Shown here: piece by piece, positions 41,806 through 51,975 of the stretch
Position numbering within the stretch: the stretch's first letter is position 1
How the letters are laid out: every line of letters begins with the position of its first letter
Virus record (IMG/VR): IMGVR_UViG_3300042895_002216
Length of the DNA: 64,000 nt
Strand: one strand, 5' to 3'
Source of the DNA: a virus
Lineage: Duplodnaviria > Heunggongvirae > Uroviricota > Caudoviricetes
Position numbers and translations under genes: made by a program
Notes under the pieces: generated by a model
Told to the model about the DNA's origin: nothing
Databases searched by the model: none
Seen by the model: the letters and a program-made list of their open reading frames with translations, nothing else

Positions 41806-42222
41806 ATGAATAGAGTCTTAATTCTCCTACGTGGAGTTCCTGGTGCAGGTAAATCAACTGTTGCCAATTCAATATGGAATGAGTATGCCGTTTGCGAAGC
41901 TGACAAGTATTTTCACAACAAGGAAACTGGTGCATACGAATTTGATGTTACTAAACTGAAGGATGCACATGAATGGTGTAGATCCCAGGTCGAGACCAGA
42001 ATGAAAGACAGTCTGGTGAATCCACAATTTTACCCAGAGATTGTTGTCTCAAACACATTCACCCAAGAGTGGGAGATGCAGGCATACTTCGATCTTGCAA
42101 AACAATACGATTACCGAGTAGTTTCTCTAATCGTTGAGAACCGTCATGGTGGAGAGAACGTGCATGGAGTACCAGCAGATAAGGTACAAGCAATGAGGGA
42201 TCGTTTCCAAATTAAATTATGA
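41806..42222 (+). CDS. P-loop kinase (polynucleotide-kinase/AAA_33-like)
   Basis: Walker A LLRGVPGAGKST in a 138-aa protein. The size and motif suit a small nucleotide/polynucleotide kinase. Confidence 0.5.
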   Translation: MNRVLILLRGVPGAGKSTVANSIWNEYAVCEADKYFHNKETGAYEFDVTKLKDAHEWCRSQVETRMKDSLVNPQFYPEIVVSNTFTQEWEMQAYFDLAKQYDYRVVSLIVENRHGGENVHGVPADKVQAMRDRFQIKL

Positions 42223-42451
42223 TAAAAACCGAGTCCTTTCTGGAGTATAGGATTACTTACTCATGTCCGTTGACTGGCATGACTGGTGTGTGCTTCTGTA
42301 AGTGGTATGAGAAACTTAATGAGGTAATTAATATTTTTAAAATACCAAGTGAGTTTAAGCTGGAAGGATTTGACGGACTCAATTGGAAACTTATTAACAA
42401 TAGCGTGCCAATTTTGGTATAATAATATAAACCTTAAACATATAAAAGTTA

Positions 42452-42786
42452 TGGACAAAAAACAAGTAATGCAAACGATCCTAGATAAATTAGGAAAGTT
42501 GAGCAAAAAATTGGGCAACTTAATGATTTTAGCATTAGCTCTAGTTGCAGGCTTCTTTATTGGTTATTACTACTGGATGGTAACAAATAAAACCGCAAAA
42601 ACTGAATGGGAAAATATTAAACCCCTATCAGAAACATCGGTTGCAATCAATGAGCGAAATGAATTGCTTGTAATCGACCGAAAATCTGGAATCTATTCAA
42701 TTTATCAGGATTCAATCGGTATCGTTATTTTTAACCTGTATGCCAATCGCATCTACAAACAAGTGGCACCAGCTGCTCAACAATAA
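42452..42786 (+). CDS. membrane protein
   Basis: N-terminal TM helix LMILALALVAGFFIGYYYW. Start moved to MDKKQV. Confidence 0.4.
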
Positions 42787-42790
42787 AATC

Positions 42791-43306
42791 ATGTTCTCCG
42801 TAAAATCTCTAGTTGTTCTAATATGCTTAGTAGTATTTGGCGCAACATGGGCTTACGAAATGCGTGAAAGGAAATCGAATGAATTGCCGGATGGGGTAAT
42901 GAATATTCAAGATGCCCCTCCGTCAATTCAATTATACGACTACTTAAAGAAATACTCTGAACAATATGGAGTTCCTTTCAATATCGCGTATGGAGTGGCT
43001 CACAAAGAAACAGGTTATGATGGTCCATTTGATTGGAAATACAATCCACAATTAACTTCATCAGCCGCAGCGTATGGTGCAATGCAGATACAGGTTCCAA
43101 CTGGCCAATCTGCATGGAAAGACGTCAAGGTAACTAAACACATGCTGTTGACTGATCTTGAATTCAATGTCGAAACATCAATGCGAGTTCTTTCTAAATT
43201 AAAGAAGAGATTTGGCAGATGGGATATTGCTCTTGGCTGTTATAACACTGGAAGACCTTTGGTAAACTCATACGCAATCGCAATCATAAACACAAAGATA
43301 AATTAA
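42791..43306 (+). CDS. membrane-anchored lytic transglycosylase (SLT domain)
   Basis: TM anchor, then AYGVAHKETGYDGPF ... AAYGAMQIQVPTG (catalytic Glu with GLMQ-like motif). Confidence 0.6.
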   Translation: MFSVKSLVVLICLVVFGATWAYEMRERKSNELPDGVMNIQDAPPSIQLYDYLKKYSEQYGVPFNIAYGVAHKETGYDGPFDWKYNPQLTSSAAAYGAMQIQVPTGQSAWKDVKVTKHMLLTDLEFNVETSMRVLSKLKKRFGRWDIALGCYNTGRPLVNSYAIAIINTKIN

Positions 43307-43308
43307 TA

Positions 43309-49401: not shown

Positions 49402-49432
49402 AAAGTCTCTAGATTTGTCTAGAGACTTTTTT
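49402..49432 (+). terminator. intrinsic terminator
   Basis: AAAGTCTCTAGA-tttg-TCTAGAGACTTTT followed by a T-run. Confidence 0.65.
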
Positions 49433-49461
49433 ATTTTGGTATAATAGTAAAAAGAAATAAC

Positions 49462-50199
49462 ATGACAGCACCATTTGAATTTTACGAAGTAGGCGGAAAG
49501 GTAAGAGACGAGATCTTGGGACTTCAGTCCAAAGACGTTGATTACGTAGCCGTGCCGAAAGCAACTCTGCTTGAGGAATTTCCTGAGGCGGCTGATATGT
49601 TTGACTTGCTAGTTGACTACTTAACTCGTGAAAAATTCCAGATATTCCTGATCACCAAAGAATGTTACACAATCAGAGCAAAATTTCCAGACGGACATAA
49701 GTACCAAGGAGTTGCTGATTTTGTAATGTCTAGAAAAGAGACTGGATACGTGCCGTTTACCAGAACTCCGATCATTAAGCCTGGAACCCTATTCGACGAT
49801 TTACAGAGAAGAGACTTTACTCTTAATGCCCTGGCAAGAGAAGCGGACGGCTCGATCATTGACTACTTTGATGGGCTGACTCACTTGAAGCTTGGGCTAT
49901 TAGTAACGCCATTACCTTGCGAGGAAACGTTTCACGATGATCCTTTGAGAATCTTGAGAGCTATTAGATTTTCAATCACTAAAGGATTTACTATCCCTGA
50001 GGAAATGTCTCAAGTAATAAAGCACTACGATTACGAAGTTAAGATGTGTGTAGTATCAGCTGAGAGAATCAGGGAAGAGCTCTTTAAGTGTTTCAAACAT
50101 GACACTCATGCAACGATACTTAAGTTATCAGAGTACCCTTTCCTTATGGAATACATTTTTAGAACACAAATCTGGTTAAAACCAACAATGGAAGAATAA
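49462..50199 (+). CDS. tRNA nucleotidyltransferase (CCA-adding) head domain protein
   Basis: FYEVGGKVRDEILGLQSKDVDYVA is the polymerase-beta-type head-domain signature of class II CCA-adding enzymes. Only 245 aa. Confidence 0.7.
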   Translation: MTAPFEFYEVGGKVRDEILGLQSKDVDYVAVPKATLLEEFPEAADMFDLLVDYLTREKFQIFLITKECYTIRAKFPDGHKYQGVADFVMSRKETGYVPFTRTPIIKPGTLFDDLQRRDFTLNALAREADGSIIDYFDGLTHLKLGLLVTPLPCEETFHDDPLRILRAIRFSITKGFTIPEEMSQVIKHYDYEVKMCVVSAERIREELFKCFKHDTHATILKLSEYPFLMEYIFRTQIWLKPTMEE

Positions 50200-50753
50200 T
50201 GGAAGCAACAATAAATGGAAGAATAATGGAAGCAAAAATAAACTGGGTTCTAGACCAACATAGAGACACGAATCACATGTACGATAAGTACTTGCCTTAT
50301 GAATTTCATTTACGTATGGTCGTTGAAGTTGCAAAGAAATTTCAATCTTTAATTACGTATGAGAAAGATTTTGAGCATGTACTACTTGGAGCATGGGGCC
50401 ATGATCTTATTGAAGACACCAGAGTTTCATACAATGATGTTAAGCAGGCGCTTGGAGAAATGGCAGCAGATATTGTCTATGCGTGCTCAAACGAGAAAGG
50501 CAAGAGTCGTAATGATCGGGCTAACTACCGATACTACGATGGAATCAGAACAACGCCGTATGCGATATTCGTTAAGTTATGCGACCGAATTGCAAACGTG
50601 CAGTACTCAAAAATGTCTGGCAGCAGAATGTTCGAGATGTACAGAAAAGAAAATCCCGAATTCATGCAGCAATTAGGCTGGACGGCTGAAGAAAAATATC
50701 TTCATGAGTATGCCAATATGTTTGTATACTTAAGTAAATTATTCGAAGACTGA
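50199..50753 (+). CDS. HD-domain phosphohydrolase
   Basis: GAWGHDLIEDT is an HD motif. The protein lies immediately after the CCA head-domain gene, making a split two-ORF arrangement. Confidence 0.7.
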   Translation: MEATINGRIMEAKINWVLDQHRDTNHMYDKYLPYEFHLRMVVEVAKKFQSLITYEKDFEHVLLGAWGHDLIEDTRVSYNDVKQALGEMAADIVYACSNEKGKSRNDRANYRYYDGIRTTPYAIFVKLCDRIANVQYSKMSGSRMFEMYRKENPEFMQQLGWTAEEKYLHEYANMFVYLSKLFED

Positions 50754-50772
50754 AAATAAAAAAATTAATATA

Positions 50773-51975
50773 ATGGAAAATCAAAACAGCGTATGTTACA
50801 TTGGAAAAGTAACAGAAATCAAGGCAATCGAAGGAGCTGACAATATTGAGTTAGCGATCATCGGTGGATGGAATTGTATTACTAAAAAAGGACTACACAA
50901 GGCGGACGAATTTGTTATCATTGCAACAACTGATGCAGTTATTCCGGAAGAGTTATCCGAAAAATTGGGAGTAACCGGTTACCTGCGTAAGGGCAATCGA
51001 GTTAGAACAGTTAAGTTGAGAGGAGTTTACAGTGAGTGTCTAATCATTCCGCTTAATGTGCTTGAAGGTTCAGAAGAAATGAAGATCGGAGTTAGTAAAC
51101 AGCCTTGGGGCGATCAATTACAGTTGGGCCCTTATGACGATGCACTCGTTATTGAAGAAGGAGTTGACGTTAGTGAGATGCTTGGAATTTTCAAGTACGA
51201 ACCGCCAGTTAGACAGGTCCAACTTGCTTCAGGTAAAAAGGTTCGTTATCAAGACAATCCAAACTTTCATGTCTACTACAAGTTTCCTAACTTGAAAAAT
51301 GTTAGTGGAATGTTTACTGAAGAGGATATTGTGCAAATCACGCGTAAGATCCACGGTACGAATGCACGATACGGTATAGTTAAGAAGAATCGCTTGTCCT
51401 TCATGGATAGGATTAAAAAATTCTTTGGATTCGCCGGAGAGCTCTTTGAGTACGAGTACGTTTATGGATCTCATAATGTCGAGAAGGGTTCTGATTCTCA
51501 AGGGTTCTATTCAACTGATGTCTGGAGAACAATTGCCGAGAAGTACGATATCAAGAACAGGTTGCTTACCTTAGCAAAAACTAAAAATAGGATTGGTGAA
51601 CTTGGAGCTGGTATTGTAATTTACGGAGAAATTTACGGTGCAGGTATTCAAAAGAATTACGAGTACGGTCTGACTGATATTGAATTCGTTGGATTCGATG
51701 CCACAGTAAACGGCAAATACGAGTCCACTATTTACACTGAATTCCTTTTCAAAGAAGCGCTAGAGTTACCTCACGTTGGAGTCCTATACACAGGACCGTG
51801 GTCACAAGAGACACAAGACCAGTTCGTCTTTGGTAATATGATCAAAGGAACTAAGGTGCCGCATGAAGGCATTGTTATTAAGCACATAAGCGGTGAGCGT
51901 AATCGAGTAGCAAAGGTAATTAATCCAGACTATTTGATTTACGGAGAAAAGCACGATATTGGAGACTCACATTAA
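50773..51975 (+). CDS. ATP-dependent RNA/DNA ligase-family nucleotidyltransferase (RNA-ligase-like)
   Basis: Candidate motif I KIHGTN, motif IV EGIVIK and motif V-like VAKVINP in the expected order and spacing. Confidence 0.5.
   Translation: MENQNSVCYIGKVTEIKAIEGADNIELAIIGGWNCITKKGLHKADEFVIIATTDAVIPEELSEKLGVTGYLRKGNRVRTVKLRGVYSECLIIPLNVLEGSEEMKIGVSKQPWGDQLQLGPYDDALVIEEGVDVSEMLGIFKYEPPVRQVQLASGKKVRYQDNPNFHVYYKFPNLKNVSGMFTEEDIVQITRKIHGTNARYGIVKKNRLSFMDRIKKFFGFAGELFEYEYVYGSHNVEKGSDSQGFYSTDVWRTIAEKYDIKNRLLTLAKTKNRIGELGAGIVIYGEIYGAGIQKNYEYGLTDIEFVGFDATVNGKYESTIYTEFLFKEALELPHVGVLYTGPWSQETQDQFVFGNMIKGTKVPHEGIVIKHISGERNRVAKVINPDYLIYGEKHDIGDSH

What the first reader, a model, noticed from the sequence alone, without database searches (positions are those of the whole stretch)
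41806..51975. An RNA end-healing and sealing toolkit is present
The toolkit comprises a P-loop polynucleotide-kinase-like protein (41806), a 2H phosphoesterase (20106), a CCA-adding head domain plus a separate HD phosphohydrolase (49462, 50199) and a ligase-family nucleotidyltransferase with motifs I/IV/V (50773).

Together these supply 5'-kinase, 2',3'-cyclic phosphodiesterase, 3'-end repair and sealing activities. This is the T4 Pnk/Rnl-type countermeasure to host anticodon nucleases, here split across separate genes.

The CCA enzyme is itself split into two ORFs. A 27-bp tandem duplication at 50187-50240 spans the stop/start junction between them and creates two identical ATGGAAGCAA start contexts.
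Basis: partly seen in the sequence, partly recalled or inferred. Interest (0 to 1): 0.6.

Follow-up and report, generated by a model that had tools for sequence, protein, structure and literature searches.

The report
Phage tRNA-end repair gene set
A large tRNA-rich phage carries a known type of RNA-end repair kit, but the supposed second half of a "split" CCA enzyme is a separate alarmone-hydrolase-type enzyme, a family shown elsewhere to unblock tRNA ends poisoned by bacterial defence toxins.

Summary
The ORFs, their domain families and the 27-bp tandem duplication are all real. The kinase model (41806) matches T4 and Clostridium polynucleotide kinases best. The ligase (50773) is an Rnl5-type RNA ligase whose motif I lysine is invariant in 43 diverse homologues.

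One is a calcineurin-like phosphoesterase (46384). The other is a cREC protein (51990) directly after the ligase.

The "split CCA enzyme" reading is wrong:
- The 245-aa CCA protein is the normal full length of a widespread short phage family.
- The HD protein (50199) is a RelA/SpoT-type small alarmone hydrolase (SAH), not a CCA-enzyme HD domain.
- The closest relatives have one or two unrelated ORFs between the two genes.
- No fusion was found in 80 related loci.

In relatives the SAH starts at the second ATG (50226), so the duplication is a lineage-specific 9-codon addition.

SAH, CCA, Rnl5, cREC, kinase and phosphoesterase recur together in shuffled orders in related phages and in Pseudomonas phage PaGz-1.

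The 2H protein, about 30 kb away, cannot be assigned. It could be RNA repair or an Acb1-like signal degrader.

Phage RNA-repair kits and anti-toxSAS phage SAHs are both published. This is an ordinary to mildly interesting member.

The parts
41806..42222 (+). P-loop kinase of the T4 Pnk fold (138 aa, kinase domain only); candidate RNA 5'-OH kinase
   Evidence: Pfam AAA_33 at 4e-11. PHROG 2071 at 8e-38 and polynucleotide kinase PHROG 505 at 4e-6. The AF2 model has pLDDT 81. Foldseek PDB top hits are T4 Pnk 2ia5/1ly1 (E 7e-6, TM 0.67-0.69) and C. thermocellum Pnkp kinase. Orthologues lie next to a phosphoesterase and an RNA ligase in L004, L061 and PaGz-1. K16, D33 and R113 are invariant in 29 homologues.
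46384..47052 (+).
   Evidence: Pfam Metallophos at 1.2e-8. PHROG 547 at 1.4e-42. It is 51% identical to the L004 phosphoesterase, which lies 200 nt upstream of the kinase orthologue and near an Rnl1 ligase. A homologue is near the SAH in 7 of 45 lineages.
49400..49431 (+). Terminator-like hairpin (14-bp stem plus T run) that bounds the CCA-SAH-Rnl5-cREC block upstream
   Evidence: No terminator-like site lies inside 49462-53027.
49462..50199 (+). Short class II tRNA nucleotidyltransferase (CCA-adding type; head and neck only, 245 aa)
   Evidence: PolyA_pol at 6e-15. NCBIfam CCA models match only their first ~200-240 positions. PHROG 24229 matches positions 5-241 of 245 at 3.5e-53. PDB CCA enzymes and poly(A) polymerases match at 1e-15 to 1e-22. 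408 phage records cover at least 80% of it. The GGKVRD, DVD, RRD and DDPLRILR motifs are read directly from the sequence.
50187..50240 (+). 27-bp tandem duplication across the CCA stop / SAH start junction
   Evidence: TRF score 105, 96% match; sequence. Relatives have a single copy of the CCA-end sequence ACAATGGAAGAATAATGGAA. Their SAH starts at the equivalent of 50226.
50199..50753 (+). RelA/SpoT-family small alarmone hydrolase (SAH); the ancestral start is probably ATG 50226
   Evidence: PDB sequence hits are only SAHs, Mesh1 and Rel hydrolase domains (3nqw 6.5e-7, 6yvc 1.8e-6; profile search 6yvc 1.1e-9). NCBIfam spoT_relA at 7e-5. The GHDLIEDT and KLCDRIAN motifs are invariant. Sources name homologues '(p)ppGpp synthase/HD superfamily hydrolase'.
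50773..51975 (+). Rnl5-type ATP-dependent RNA ligase (N-terminal OB domain plus nucleotidyltransferase domain)
   Evidence: PF21189 and PF09414. TIGR02306 RNA_lig_DRB0094 at 4e-27, full length but below its cut-off. NgrRnl 5cot at 2e-16 with a profile. PHROG 968 at 8e-59. K192, H194, G195, E286, E365, G366 and V368 are invariant and K381 is over 90% conserved in 43 homologues.
   Evidence: Pfam PF20274 at 2.3e-20, above its cut-off. It follows the Rnl5 gene in L009, L011 and L014. The cREC-RNA ligase linkage is described in PMC7824862.
20106..20657 (+). 2H phosphoesterase; membership of the kit is doubtful
   Evidence: 2_5_RNA_ligase2 at 1.7e-5 and Acb1 at 1.8e-5, both below cut-off. The profile hits only Acb1 chains in the PDB, weakly. 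Of 35 homologues, 32 hit Acb1 and 29 hit 2_5_RNA_ligase2. Model top hits are poxvirus cGAMP PDE and phage Acb1, then Usb1 and LigT. The best viral matches are an unnamed phage 2H subfamily. A homologue lies 27 nt upstream of the SAH in the L026/L027 lineage.
33559..39216 (+). Main tRNA gene array (19 of the window's 26 tRNA genes); likely substrates
   Evidence: ARAGORN. 16 of the 26 tRNA genes do not encode the 3' CCA. Further tRNA genes lie at 53120-53200 and 59084-60011.

Best explanation
The window comes from a large tRNA-rich phage (contigs of at least 159 kb, weak DNA similarity to phages of Bacteroidota). It encodes a set of enzymes that keep tRNA and other RNA ends usable during infection.

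The core is a tightly packed, co-directional block bounded upstream by a terminator-like hairpin:
- a short CCA-adding enzyme (49462);
- a RelA/SpoT-type small alarmone hydrolase, SAH (50199 or 50226);
- an Rnl5-type RNA ligase (50773);
- a cREC protein (51990).

Upstream lie a Pnk-fold kinase (41806) and a calcineurin-like phosphoesterase (46384).

Inferred mechanism:
1. [quoted passage not shown]
2. The phosphoesterase and/or cREC clear the 3' end.
3. Rnl5 seals the nick, which the folded tRNA holds together.
4. At the acceptor end, the SAH removes a 3'-(pyro)phosphate of the kind added by toxSAS toxins, or destroys their alarmone products.
5. The CCA enzyme rebuilds or adds CCA. It also matures the 16 of 26 phage tRNAs whose genes lack CCA.

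The HD protein is a separate enzyme, not half of the CCA enzyme. The 27-bp duplication is a lineage-specific event. It either adds nine N-terminal codons to the SAH or leaves a 27-nt spacer.

What is shown and what is inferred: family assignments, conserved catalytic motifs and recurrent gene neighbourhoods are shown. All substrates and the order of the steps are inferred.
For: Family assignments.

Operon-like packing:
- The gaps between the genes are -1, 19, 14 and 21 nt.
- A hairpin lies at 49400-49431 and none inside the block.

Gene neighbourhoods:
- L061 has phosphoesterase, 149-aa ORF, kinase, cREC, 89-aa ORF, SAH and Rnl5 contiguous on one strand.
- L011/L012 have kinase, phosphoesterase, SAH, Rnl5 and cREC within 6 kb, without CCA.
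- L004 has phosphoesterase, kinase and Rnl1.
- The unrelated Pseudomonas phage PaGz-1 has SAH, Metallophos_2, Rnl1, AAA_33 kinase and PRPP synthetase within 4 kb.
- MT835470 has an RNA ligase, the short CCA enzyme and a T4-like Pnkp within 5 kb.

Census of 80 viral loci, 45 SAH lineages at 85% identity:
- CCA lies within 6 kb in 13 lineages. It is directly adjacent in 6, in both orders.
- Rnl5 is within 6 kb in 13 lineages, cREC in 7 and the phosphoesterase in 7.
- Other window neighbours are much rarer: RmlC-like in 3, Band_7 in 1, SET in 0.

Literature:
- The cREC-RNA ligase linkage, and kinase, phosphoesterase, 2H and CCA enzymes as phage RNA-repair parts, are described in PMC7824862 and PMC9503650.
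- Phage SAHs of PVP-SE1 and SSU5 neutralise all tested toxSAS toxins (PMC7229694).
- The SAHs MESH1 and ATfaRel restore aminoacylation of tRNA pyrophosphorylated at its CCA end (10.1101/2021.04.30.441581).
Against: - No activity was or could be tested here.
- All 80 census loci belong to one broad phage group (SAH at least 53% identical; single linkage at 70% collapses them to 7 groups). Shared ancestry and a common early-gene region could explain much of the co-location.
- 19 of 45 lineages have none of these genes within 6 kb of the SAH.
- In Tenacibaculum PTm1, a Nodularia phage and Vibrio K354 the SAH has no repair neighbours.
- From my own knowledge, Rnl5 enzymes are characterised as nick sealers in duplexes, not as anticodon-loop ligases.
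- The kinase lacks an Arg at the position of T4 Pnk R38 (sequence EADKYF).
- The ligase scores below the TIGR02306 curated cut-off (94.8 against 151).
- In the window the kinase and phosphoesterase are 7 kb and 2.4 kb from the core block, with unrelated genes between them (PRPP synthetase, SET, flotillin-like).
Confidence: 0.6

Rival explanations
1. The region is a mixed counter-defence island, not one pathway. The SAH degrades free alarmones ((p)ppGpp, (pp)pApp) or other 3'-pyrophosphorylated nucleotides. The 2H protein degrades cyclic-nucleotide immune signals as Acb1 does. The ligase, kinase and phosphoesterase repair RNA independently. The genes are neighbours only because phage accessory and early genes cluster.
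For: - PMC7824862 files the phage 'HD-alarmone PDEase' under counter-nucleotide systems, not RNA repair.
- The 2H profile hits only Acb1 in the PDB, and the model's top hits are viral cGAMP/CBASS phosphodiesterases.
- A Tad6 anti-Thoeris homologue is also in the window.
- Several phages carry the SAH with no repair neighbours.
- 19 of 45 lineages have no partner gene within 6 kb.
Against: - The SAH stays next to CCA in both gene orders and next to Rnl5 or cREC in other lineages, while SET, Band_7 and RmlC do not.
- L061 and PaGz-1 embed the SAH inside contiguous repair gene sets.
- SAHs are known to act on tRNA 3' ends.
Confidence: 0.3
2. The function is tRNA maturation rather than damage repair. 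The CCA enzyme exists to finish the phage's own tRNAs, and the neighbouring enzymes serve ordinary RNA processing.
For: - 16 of 26 tRNA genes in the window lack an encoded CCA.
- The short CCA enzyme occurs in 472 mostly large, tRNA-carrying phage records.
- A tRNA-Leu gene directly follows the block.
Against: - Maturation of bacterial-type tRNAs needs no ligase, 5' kinase or cyclic-phosphate enzyme.
- L011/L012 keep SAH, Rnl5, cREC, kinase and phosphoesterase without the CCA gene.
- From my own knowledge, hosts normally supply CCA addition.
Confidence: 0.2
3. One reading: the CCA-adding enzyme is split into a head ORF and its own HD phosphohydrolase ORF. The duplication marks the split point.
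For: - The two ORFs abut with an overlapping TAATG.
- From my own knowledge, E. coli-type CCA enzymes carry an HD domain.
- CCA and HD genes are directly adjacent in 6 of 45 related lineages.
Against: - The HD ORF matches only RelA/SpoT-type hydrolases and gives no hit to PRK10885 or PHROG 2244.
- The closest relatives have one or two ORFs between the genes.
- Two lineages have the order SAH then CCA.
- L011/L012 have the HD gene without CCA. Cellulophaga phi4:1 and MT835470 have CCA without the HD gene.
- No fused ORF was found in 80 loci or among the 120 best HD homologues, which are 160-213 aa long.
- The 245-aa form fills its own PHROG profile end to end.
Confidence: 0.03

Closest known systems
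Phage RNA-repair gene sets described by comparative genomics (Iyer, Anantharaman, Krishnan, Burroughs, Aravind 2021, PMC7824862; also PMC9503650)
   Same: ATP-dependent RNA ligase with an adjacent cREC gene, stand-alone polynucleotide kinase, phosphoesterases (calcineurin-like, 2H), CCA-adding enzyme and many phage tRNA genes.
   Different: Those papers file the HD alarmone hydrolase under counter-nucleotide systems. Here it sits inside the repair block and recurs next to CCA and Rnl5. The passages I read name RtcB, Rnl1 and Rnl2; the ligase here is Rnl5-type. The CCA enzyme is the short 245-aa form.
T4 Pnkp plus Rnl1 repair of PrrC-cleaved tRNA
   Same: The logic is the same: 5' kinase, 3' end healing, then ATP-dependent sealing. 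The kinase model's best structural match is T4 Pnk.
   Different: The kinase has no fused HAD phosphatase domain (138 aa). The candidate 3' healing enzymes are a calcineurin-like phosphoesterase and cREC. The ligase is not Rnl1 (no PF09511 hit, and no Rnl1 homologue in the window). The genes are spread over 10 kb.
Rnl5 RNA ligases (Deinococcus DraRnl, Naegleria NgrRnl; TIGR02306)
   Same: N-terminal OB domain followed by the nucleotidyltransferase domain. The match to TIGR02306 is full length. NgrRnl is the only PDB family hit. The motif I, III, IV and V residues are conserved.
   Different: It is about 60 aa longer. It scores below the TIGR02306 curated cut-off (94.8 against 151). The phage context with cREC and SAH is not a feature of the characterised members.
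Phage small alarmone hydrolases (Salmonella phage PVP-SE1 PbcSpo, SSU5 PaSpo; Jimmy et al. 2020, PMC7229694)
   Same: Stand-alone ~170-185-aa RelA/SpoT-type hydrolase in a lytic phage. The HDxxED and KLxDR motifs are present. The published members neutralise toxSAS toxins, including those that pyrophosphorylate tRNA.
   Different: The relationship is only distant (hhalign probability 83% to PVP-SE1 gp220). The subfamily was not determined and no activity data exist. Here the gene abuts a CCA-adding enzyme and an RNA ligase.
Bacterial Pnkp/Hen1 repair system
   Same: Pnk-type kinase, calcineurin-like 2',3' phosphatase and ATP-dependent ligase (PMC3675462 abstract). There is a weak TIGR04075 hit to the kinase.
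   Different: The three activities are separate proteins rather than one polypeptide. No Hen1 methyltransferase was seen in the ORFs I scanned. The ligase family differs.

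Membership tests
T4-type polynucleotide kinase-phosphatase (Pnkp) | P-loop kinase domain of the Pnk fold | tested here: met
   The Foldseek top hits of the AF2 model are T4 Pnk 2ia5/1ly1 (E 7e-6, TM 0.67-0.69) and C. thermocellum Pnkp kinase. No NMP kinase is among the top hits.
T4-type polynucleotide kinase-phosphatase (Pnkp) | Fused C-terminal HAD-type 3' phosphatase domain | tested here: not met
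   The ORF is 138 aa and kinase-only. By contrast, MT835470 has a 306-aa kinase-phosphatase ORF.
T4-type polynucleotide kinase-phosphatase (Pnkp) | Catalytic Asp after strand 2, plus Arg residues that hold the 5' nucleotide and the gamma phosphate | tested here: inconclusive
   D33 and R113 are invariant in 29 homologues. The residue three positions after the Asp is Phe, not Arg (EADKYF). No residue-level structural superposition was available.
T4-type polynucleotide kinase-phosphatase (Pnkp) | 5'-OH polynucleotide kinase activity | not testable with these tools
   Needs an enzyme assay.
Rnl5 RNA ligase (DraRnl/NgrRnl, TIGR02306) | N-terminal OB domain followed by the nucleotidyltransferase domain | tested here: met
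   PF21189 covers residues 10-94 and PF09414 covers 186-383. TIGR02306 aligns residues 11-388 to model positions 6-339 of 341. NgrRnl gives 2e-16.
Rnl5 RNA ligase (DraRnl/NgrRnl, TIGR02306) | Motif I lysine and motifs III, IV and V conserved | tested here: met
   K192, H194, G195, E286, E365, G366 and V368 are invariant and K381 is at least 90% conserved in 43 homologues of 29-65% identity.
Rnl5 RNA ligase (DraRnl/NgrRnl, TIGR02306) | Score above the curated equivalog cut-off | tested here: not met
   94.8 bits against a cut-off of 151.15. It is a divergent relative, so it is filed as Rnl5-type rather than as an equivalog.
T4 Rnl1 RNA ligase (PF09511) | Match to the Rnl1 nucleotidyltransferase domain | tested here: not met
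   The window ligase gives no PF09511 hit. tblastn of the L004 Rnl1 against the window finds nothing.
Class II CCA-adding enzyme | Head domain with the GGxVRD, DxD, RRD and (E/D)DxxR motifs | tested here: met
   PolyA_pol at 6e-15. The motifs are read directly from the sequence. PDB CCA enzymes match at 1e-15 to 1e-22.
Class II CCA-adding enzyme | Body and tail domains that hold the tRNA | tested here: not met
   The ORF ends at residue 245. All NCBIfam and PDB matches cover only the first ~200-260 residues of ~400-aa enzymes. This short form is a family of its own, PHROG 24229.
Class II CCA-adding enzyme | CCA (rather than poly(A), CC or A) addition | not testable with these tools
   PcnB models score similarly to CCA models. 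Specificity needs an assay.
E. coli-type multifunctional CCA enzyme with an HD domain (PRK10885) | The HD ORF corresponds to the C-terminal HD half of the enzyme | tested here: not met
   The HD ORF gives no hit to PRK10885 at E up to 0.01, while the CCA ORF matches its positions 2-194. The HD ORF hits only RelA/SpoT-type hydrolases.
RelA/SpoT-homologue small alarmone hydrolase (SAH) | RSH hydrolase-domain sequence signature (HDxxED, KLxDRxxN), single domain of ~170-200 aa | tested here: met
   GHDLIEDT and KLCDRIAN are invariant in 15 homologues. A profile against the PDB hits only SAHs, Mesh1 and Rel (6yvc 1.1e-9).
RelA/SpoT-homologue small alarmone hydrolase (SAH) | Pfam HD_4 (PF13328) above its cut-off | tested here: inconclusive
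   The window protein hits only PF01966 HD at 0.0017, below cut-off. A few close homologues carry precomputed PF13328 hits.
RelA/SpoT-homologue small alarmone hydrolase (SAH) | Hydrolysis of the 3'-pyrophosphate of (p)ppGpp, (pp)pApp or tRNA | not testable with these tools
   Needs an enzyme assay. Precedent is in PMC7229694 and 10.1101/2021.04.30.441581.
cREC (PF20274) | Match above the Pfam cut-off, and a position next to an RNA ligase | tested here: met
   73.5 bits against a cut-off of 27. It starts 14 nt after the Rnl5 stop. The same order is seen in L011 and L014.
Acb1 anti-CBASS 2H phosphodiesterase (PF23474) | Match above the Pfam cut-off and closest structural similarity to Acb1 | tested here: inconclusive
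   25.0 bits against a cut-off of 27. 32 of 35 homologues hit Acb1, the best at 1.8e-8. PDB matches are 9q2g at 3.5e-5 and 7t27 at 6e-5, with TM only 0.46-0.55. Named Acb1 models in BFVD rank below an unnamed phage 2H subfamily.
LigT/ThpR-type RNA 2',3'-cyclic phosphodiesterase | Two HxT motifs in the 2H fold and a match to LigT models | tested here: inconclusive
   Both HxT motifs are invariant. TIGR02258 gives only 0.0013. LigT and CPDase structures rank 13th and below, at 3e-4 to 5e-3.

The most novel reading that the evidence does not exclude
In this phage group the small alarmone hydrolase is a dedicated tRNA 3'-end healing enzyme. It works with the short CCA-adding enzyme, and with Rnl5 and cREC, as one module. 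The SAH strips the 3'-pyrophosphate that toxSAS defence toxins (the CapRel/PhRel/FaRel2 type) put on the CCA end. The CCA enzyme rebuilds any trimmed end. That would extend phage RNA repair from anticodon breaks to acceptor-end poisoning. The recurrent SAH-CCA adjacency in both gene orders would be its genomic signature.
Probability: 0.3. Interest if true: 0.6.

Novelty: new member of a known kind. Interest (0 to 1): 0.35.

Why it matters
If the inferred roles hold, this phage group defends both ends of tRNA damage: internal breaks, and blocked or trimmed CCA ends. It does so with an unusual combination of parts: an Rnl5 ligase, cREC, an alarmone-type hydrolase and a minimal CCA enzyme that lacks the usual tRNA-binding body and tail.

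Three cheap experiments follow:
- Does a phage SAH act on pyrophosphorylated tRNA in concert with a CCA enzyme?
- How does a 245-aa CCA enzyme recognise tRNA?
- Does cREC really open 2',3'-cyclic phosphates? That activity is still only predicted in the literature.

As an annotation result it also corrects a tempting error. An HD gene next to a CCA head gene is not a split CCA enzyme.

Tried and rejected
- Sequence-only PDB searches with the kinase, single and as a profile, gave nothing below E 0.01. Only the structure model resolved it.
- Pfam found nothing in the small ORFs that separate CCA, SAH and Rnl5 in relatives. PHROGs calls the 164-aa ORF of L014 a 'hydrolase' (phrog_3668, 1.7e-16) and the PDB search found nothing. 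My impression that it resembles a peptidyl-tRNA hydrolase is unverified, so I dropped it.
- The sigma-70 promoter scan found fewer sites than the shuffles did (30 against 34). It is uninformative for this host type.
- PADLOC gave no hit for the SAH, 2H, cREC, CCA or ligase proteins.
- A literature search for short phage CCA enzymes that lack body and tail found nothing.
- A programmed frameshift that fuses CCA and SAH was rejected. There is no slippery heptamer before the stop (sequence), and the relatives have separate genes.
- PVP-SE1, whose SAH has been tested experimentally, gave only loose support. Its HD gene lies 6 kb from an Rnl2-type ligase and a Macro gene, and 28 kb from its full-length CCA enzyme.
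- The direction of the event at the CCA/SAH junction is unsettled. The window shares TAATGGAA with the start of the 164-aa ORF of its two closest relatives, which suggests that ORF was deleted. More distant lineages have direct CCA-SAH adjacency, so an insertion in the relatives is also possible.

Full report
**What the window is**

All genes discussed are on the + strand. The window has 39% G+C and 26 tRNA genes. DNA similarity to known phages is weak: Cellulophaga phi4:1-like phages, Flavobacterium phages and an unannotated faecal phage. Exact copies of its proteins occur on metagenome contigs of up to 159-271 kb. It is therefore a large tRNA-rich phage, probably of a Bacteroidota host. The host is my inference.

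**Observation check**

- 41806-42222: AAA_33 P-loop kinase.
- 20106-20657: 2H fold, with both HxT motifs invariant in 35 homologues.
- 49462-50199: class II nucleotidyltransferase head.
- 50199-50753: HD superfamily.
- 50773-51975: RNA ligase with an N-terminal OB domain.

The tandem duplication is real.
- TRF reports period 27, 2.1 copies, 96% match and score 105 at 50187-50242.
- The two copies differ at one base, so both ATGs (50199 and 50226) have identical contexts.
- Only three arrays in the 64 kb score 60 or more.

**Kinase**

Sequence searches of the PDB were uninformative. An AlphaFold model built on 29 homologues (pLDDT 81) has T4 polynucleotide kinase as its best solved match (2ia5/1ly1, E 7e-6, TM 0.67-0.69). 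The kinase domain of C. thermocellum Pnkp comes next. NMP kinases do not appear among the top hits.

The family is large and very conserved, with about 8000 relatives, many near 70% identity. K16, D33 and R113 are invariant.

Context supports an RNA role.
- In a 276-kb contig the 70%-identical orthologue lies between a 222-aa metallophosphoesterase and an Rnl1-type RNA ligase.
- In Pseudomonas phage PaGz-1 an AAA_33 kinase directly follows an Rnl1 ligase.

It is not a T4 Pnkp equivalent, however. It has no phosphatase domain, and the Arg three residues after the catalytic Asp is missing.

**Two missed healing candidates**

The window's own 222-aa metallophosphoesterase (46384-47052) is 51% identical to the one next to the kinase orthologue in L004. 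The ORF right after the ligase (51990-52463) is a cREC domain protein, with PF20274 at 2e-20. Published comparative genomics predicts that cREC opens cyclic phosphates, and reports it linked to RNA ligases in phages (PMC7824862 and PMC9503650).

**Ligase**

It is Rnl5-type.
- The alignment to TIGR02306 (DRB0094 family) is full length at 4e-27, though below the curated cut-off.
- Naegleria NgrRnl is the only PDB family hit, at 2e-16 with a profile.
- It matches PHROG 968 end to end.
- Among 43 homologues of 29-65% identity, taken from a scan of 1.8 billion representatives, K192/H194/G195 (motif I), E286 (III) and E365/G366/V368 (IV) are invariant. K381 (V) is at least 90% conserved.

The second refutation condition is therefore also not met.

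**The "split CCA enzyme"**

The evidence contradicts this part of the interpretation.
1. The HD ORF matches only RelA/SpoT-family hydrolases among solved structures. These are Drosophila Mesh1 3nqw, the small alarmone hydrolases 6yvc and 6z3n/6z3o, and Rel and SpoT hydrolase domains. A 15-sequence profile improves these to 1e-9 and adds nothing else.
2. NCBIfam gives spoT_relA and SpoT for the HD ORF and no hit to the E. coli-type multifunctional CCA model PRK10885. The CCA ORF matches that model only over positions 2-194.
3. The signature motifs GHDLIEDT and KLCDRIAN are invariant in its homologues.
4. The 245-aa CCA protein is not truncated. It fills PHROG 24229 (245 positions) from 5 to 241. 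408 phage records cover at least 80% of it, and homologues of about this length stand alone in the phages examined, for example Cellulophaga phi4:1. In MT835470 the 59%-identical protein ends at the same place and is followed by an unrelated ORF.
5. The closest relatives separate the two genes.
   - L014 (SAH 93% identical) has CCA, a 164-aa ORF, SAH, a 115-aa ORF, Rnl5 and cREC.
   - L009 (86%) has two ORFs between CCA and SAH.
   - L011/L012 (76%) have SAH, Rnl5 and cREC with no CCA gene.
6. No ORF in 80 related viral loci combines the two domains. The 120 best HD homologues are 160-213 aa long.

**The duplication**

The nearest homologues of the SAH start at the residue that corresponds to M10, that is ATG 50226. 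The window shares ACAATGGAAGAATAATGGAA with the CCA end of L014 and L009. In those relatives the ATGGAA is the start of the 164-aa ORF.

The simplest reading is that this ORF was lost. That would have left the SAH joined to the old stop/start overlap, after which 27 bp were duplicated. More distant lineages have CCA and SAH directly adjacent, with 1-19-nt spacers, so the direction of the event is not certain.

The consequence is small either way. The SAH gains nine N-terminal residues, or a 27-nt spacer appears. The 184-aa ORF is also called on a 158,829-bp metagenome contig that carries the identical CCA protein, so the duplication is not an artefact of this one sequence.

**Is the SAH part of the repair set?**

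In the window CCA, SAH, Rnl5, cREC and an RmlC-like gene are packed with gaps of -1, 19, 14 and 21 nt. A 14-bp-stem terminator-like hairpin lies at 49400-49431, and there is no such site inside the block.

I took 80 IMG/VR loci with SAH relatives. They fall into 45 lineages at 85% SAH identity. I searched 6 kb on each side for homologues of the window's genes.

| Gene within 6 kb of the SAH | Lineages (of 45) |
|---|---|
| CCA | 13 |
| Rnl5 | 13 |
| cREC | 7 |
| Phosphoesterase | 7 |
| PRPP-synthetase-like | 6 |
| Kinase | 4 |
| Any of CCA, Rnl5, Rnl1, cREC, kinase, phosphoesterase | 26 |
| RmlC-like (window neighbour, control) | 3 |
| Band_7 (window neighbour, control) | 1 |
| SET (window neighbour, control) | 0 |

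CCA is directly adjacent to the SAH in 6 lineages, four as CCA then SAH and two as SAH then CCA.

One contig, L061, has phosphoesterase, a 149-aa ORF, kinase, cREC, an 89-aa ORF, SAH and Rnl5 contiguous on one strand. An unrelated lineage, Pseudomonas phage PaGz-1 (Pakpunavirus), has SAH, Metallophos_2, Rnl1, AAA_33 kinase and PRPP synthetase within 4 kb.

Caveats:
- All 80 loci belong to one broad phage group.
- 19 of the 45 lineages have no such neighbour.
- Several other phages carry the SAH alone.

**What is already known about phage SAHs**

Jimmy et al. 2020 showed that the stand-alone SAHs of Salmonella phages PVP-SE1 and SSU5 neutralise all tested toxSAS toxins (PMC7229694). Kurata et al. 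showed that four toxSAS subfamilies pyrophosphorylate the tRNA CCA end. They also showed that the SAHs MESH1 and ATfaRel restore aminoacylation of such tRNA (10.1101/2021.04.30.441581). Iyer et al. list an 'HD-alarmone PDEase' in jumbo phages as a counter-nucleotide enzyme.

A counter-defence role for a phage SAH is therefore established for other members. The recurrent placement beside a CCA enzyme and an RNA ligase was not described in the papers I read. It fits a role at the tRNA 3' end, but that role is an inference.

**The 2H protein**

The fold and both catalytic motifs are certain, but the subfamily is not.
- Pfam scores for 2_5_RNA_ligase2 and Acb1 are equal and both below cut-off.
- 32 of 35 homologues hit Acb1 and 29 hit 2_5_RNA_ligase2.
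- The family profile hits only Acb1 chains in the PDB, weakly.
- The model's best solved matches are penguinpox cGAMP phosphodiesterase and phage Acb1, then Usb1. LigT and CPDases rank lower.
- Among viral models the best matches are an unnamed phage 2H subfamily that includes Tenacibaculum and Maribacter phages.
- The gene lies 30 kb from the ligase block. In one related lineage, however, a homologue sits 27 nt upstream of the SAH, with Rnl5 and the kinase nearby.

I cannot decide between RNA-end or ADPR>p processing and immune-signal degradation.

**The CCA enzyme**

It has the head motifs and a neck but no body or tail. 16 of the 26 tRNA genes lack an encoded CCA. Maturation of phage tRNAs is therefore a sufficient reason for its presence, and 3'-end repair is an additional, untested role.

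**Verdict**

The finding is a largely correct recognition of a known kind of phage system. It contains one wrong sub-claim (the split CCA enzyme), one doubtful component (the 2H protein) and two missed components (the metallophosphoesterase and cREC). The modestly new element is that the SAH is embedded in the repair neighbourhood next to a minimal CCA enzyme.

Noticed in passing
window 33866-34564 (+): The ORF matches Pfam Tad6, a type I Thoeris inhibitor, at 5.5e-22. It lies between tRNA-Ser and the main tRNA array. It is another counter-defence gene in this phage.
   Followed up: no
window 32371-33054 (+): A second calcineurin-like phosphoesterase (227 aa; Metallophos at 7e-14, PHROG 1649) lies just upstream of the tRNA array. 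In L011/L012 a 228-aa Metallophos gene follows the Rnl5 region, directly after cREC in L011. Whether the two are orthologues was not tested.
   Followed up: partly
window 33559-39216, 53120-53200, 59084-60011: There are 26 tRNA genes covering most amino acids. Only 10 encode the 3' CCA.
   Followed up: partly
window 45085-46014 (+): A PRPP-synthetase-like protein. Homologues recur within 6 kb of the SAH in 6 of 45 lineages and next to the kinase in Pseudomonas phage PaGz-1. Its link to RNA repair or NAD/ADPR metabolism is unexplained.
   Followed up: partly
window 47947-49380 (+): A flotillin/Band_7-like protein of 477 aa. It sits between the SET gene and CCA here but is absent at that position in the closest relatives L014 and L009. 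A Band_7 gene is adjacent to the SAH in L013 and L053.
   Followed up: partly
window 47486-47872 (+): A SET-domain protein of 128 aa (PF00856 at 1.2e-12). It is conserved at this position in close relatives. Its target is unknown.
   Followed up: no
L014 3500-3994; L009 3991-4485: In the closest relatives a 164-aa ORF lies between CCA and SAH, and its ATG overlaps the CCA stop. PHROG 3668 calls it a 'hydrolase' at 1.7e-16. It has no Pfam or PDB hit and no homologue in the window.
   Followed up: partly
window 41806-42222 (+): The kinase also matches the N-terminal ~113 positions of a PADLOC candidate defence model, CARF4--CARF_PDDEXK_AAA, at 7e-12. The same kinase module is therefore used in a CARF-containing host protein. 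Its start is 1 nt after the stop of a ClpP gene (41139-41804).
   Followed up: no
window 25308-25451 and 31627-31723: These are the window's other tandem repeats: period 30 x 3.0 and period 27 x 1.9 inside the long minus-strand ORF 24435-26105, and period 36 x 2.7 at 31627-31723.
   Followed up: no
window 52485-53027 (+): A dTDP-4-dehydrorhamnose 3,5-epimerase-like cupin (PHROG 8784 at 5e-63) is packed into the same block 21 nt after cREC. It is also there in L014. No obvious relation to RNA repair.
   Followed up: no
window 3893-4417 (+): A phage-encoded sigma-70 family factor, with regions 2 and 4.
   Followed up: no
L002 (Cellulophaga phage phi4:1) 5731-6882: In phi4:1 the short CCA enzyme is followed by a WGR-PARP protein (PARP at 2e-20, WGR at 9e-6) and then a DNA ligase. 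This is a different, NAD-linked neighbour for the same CCA family.
   Followed up: no
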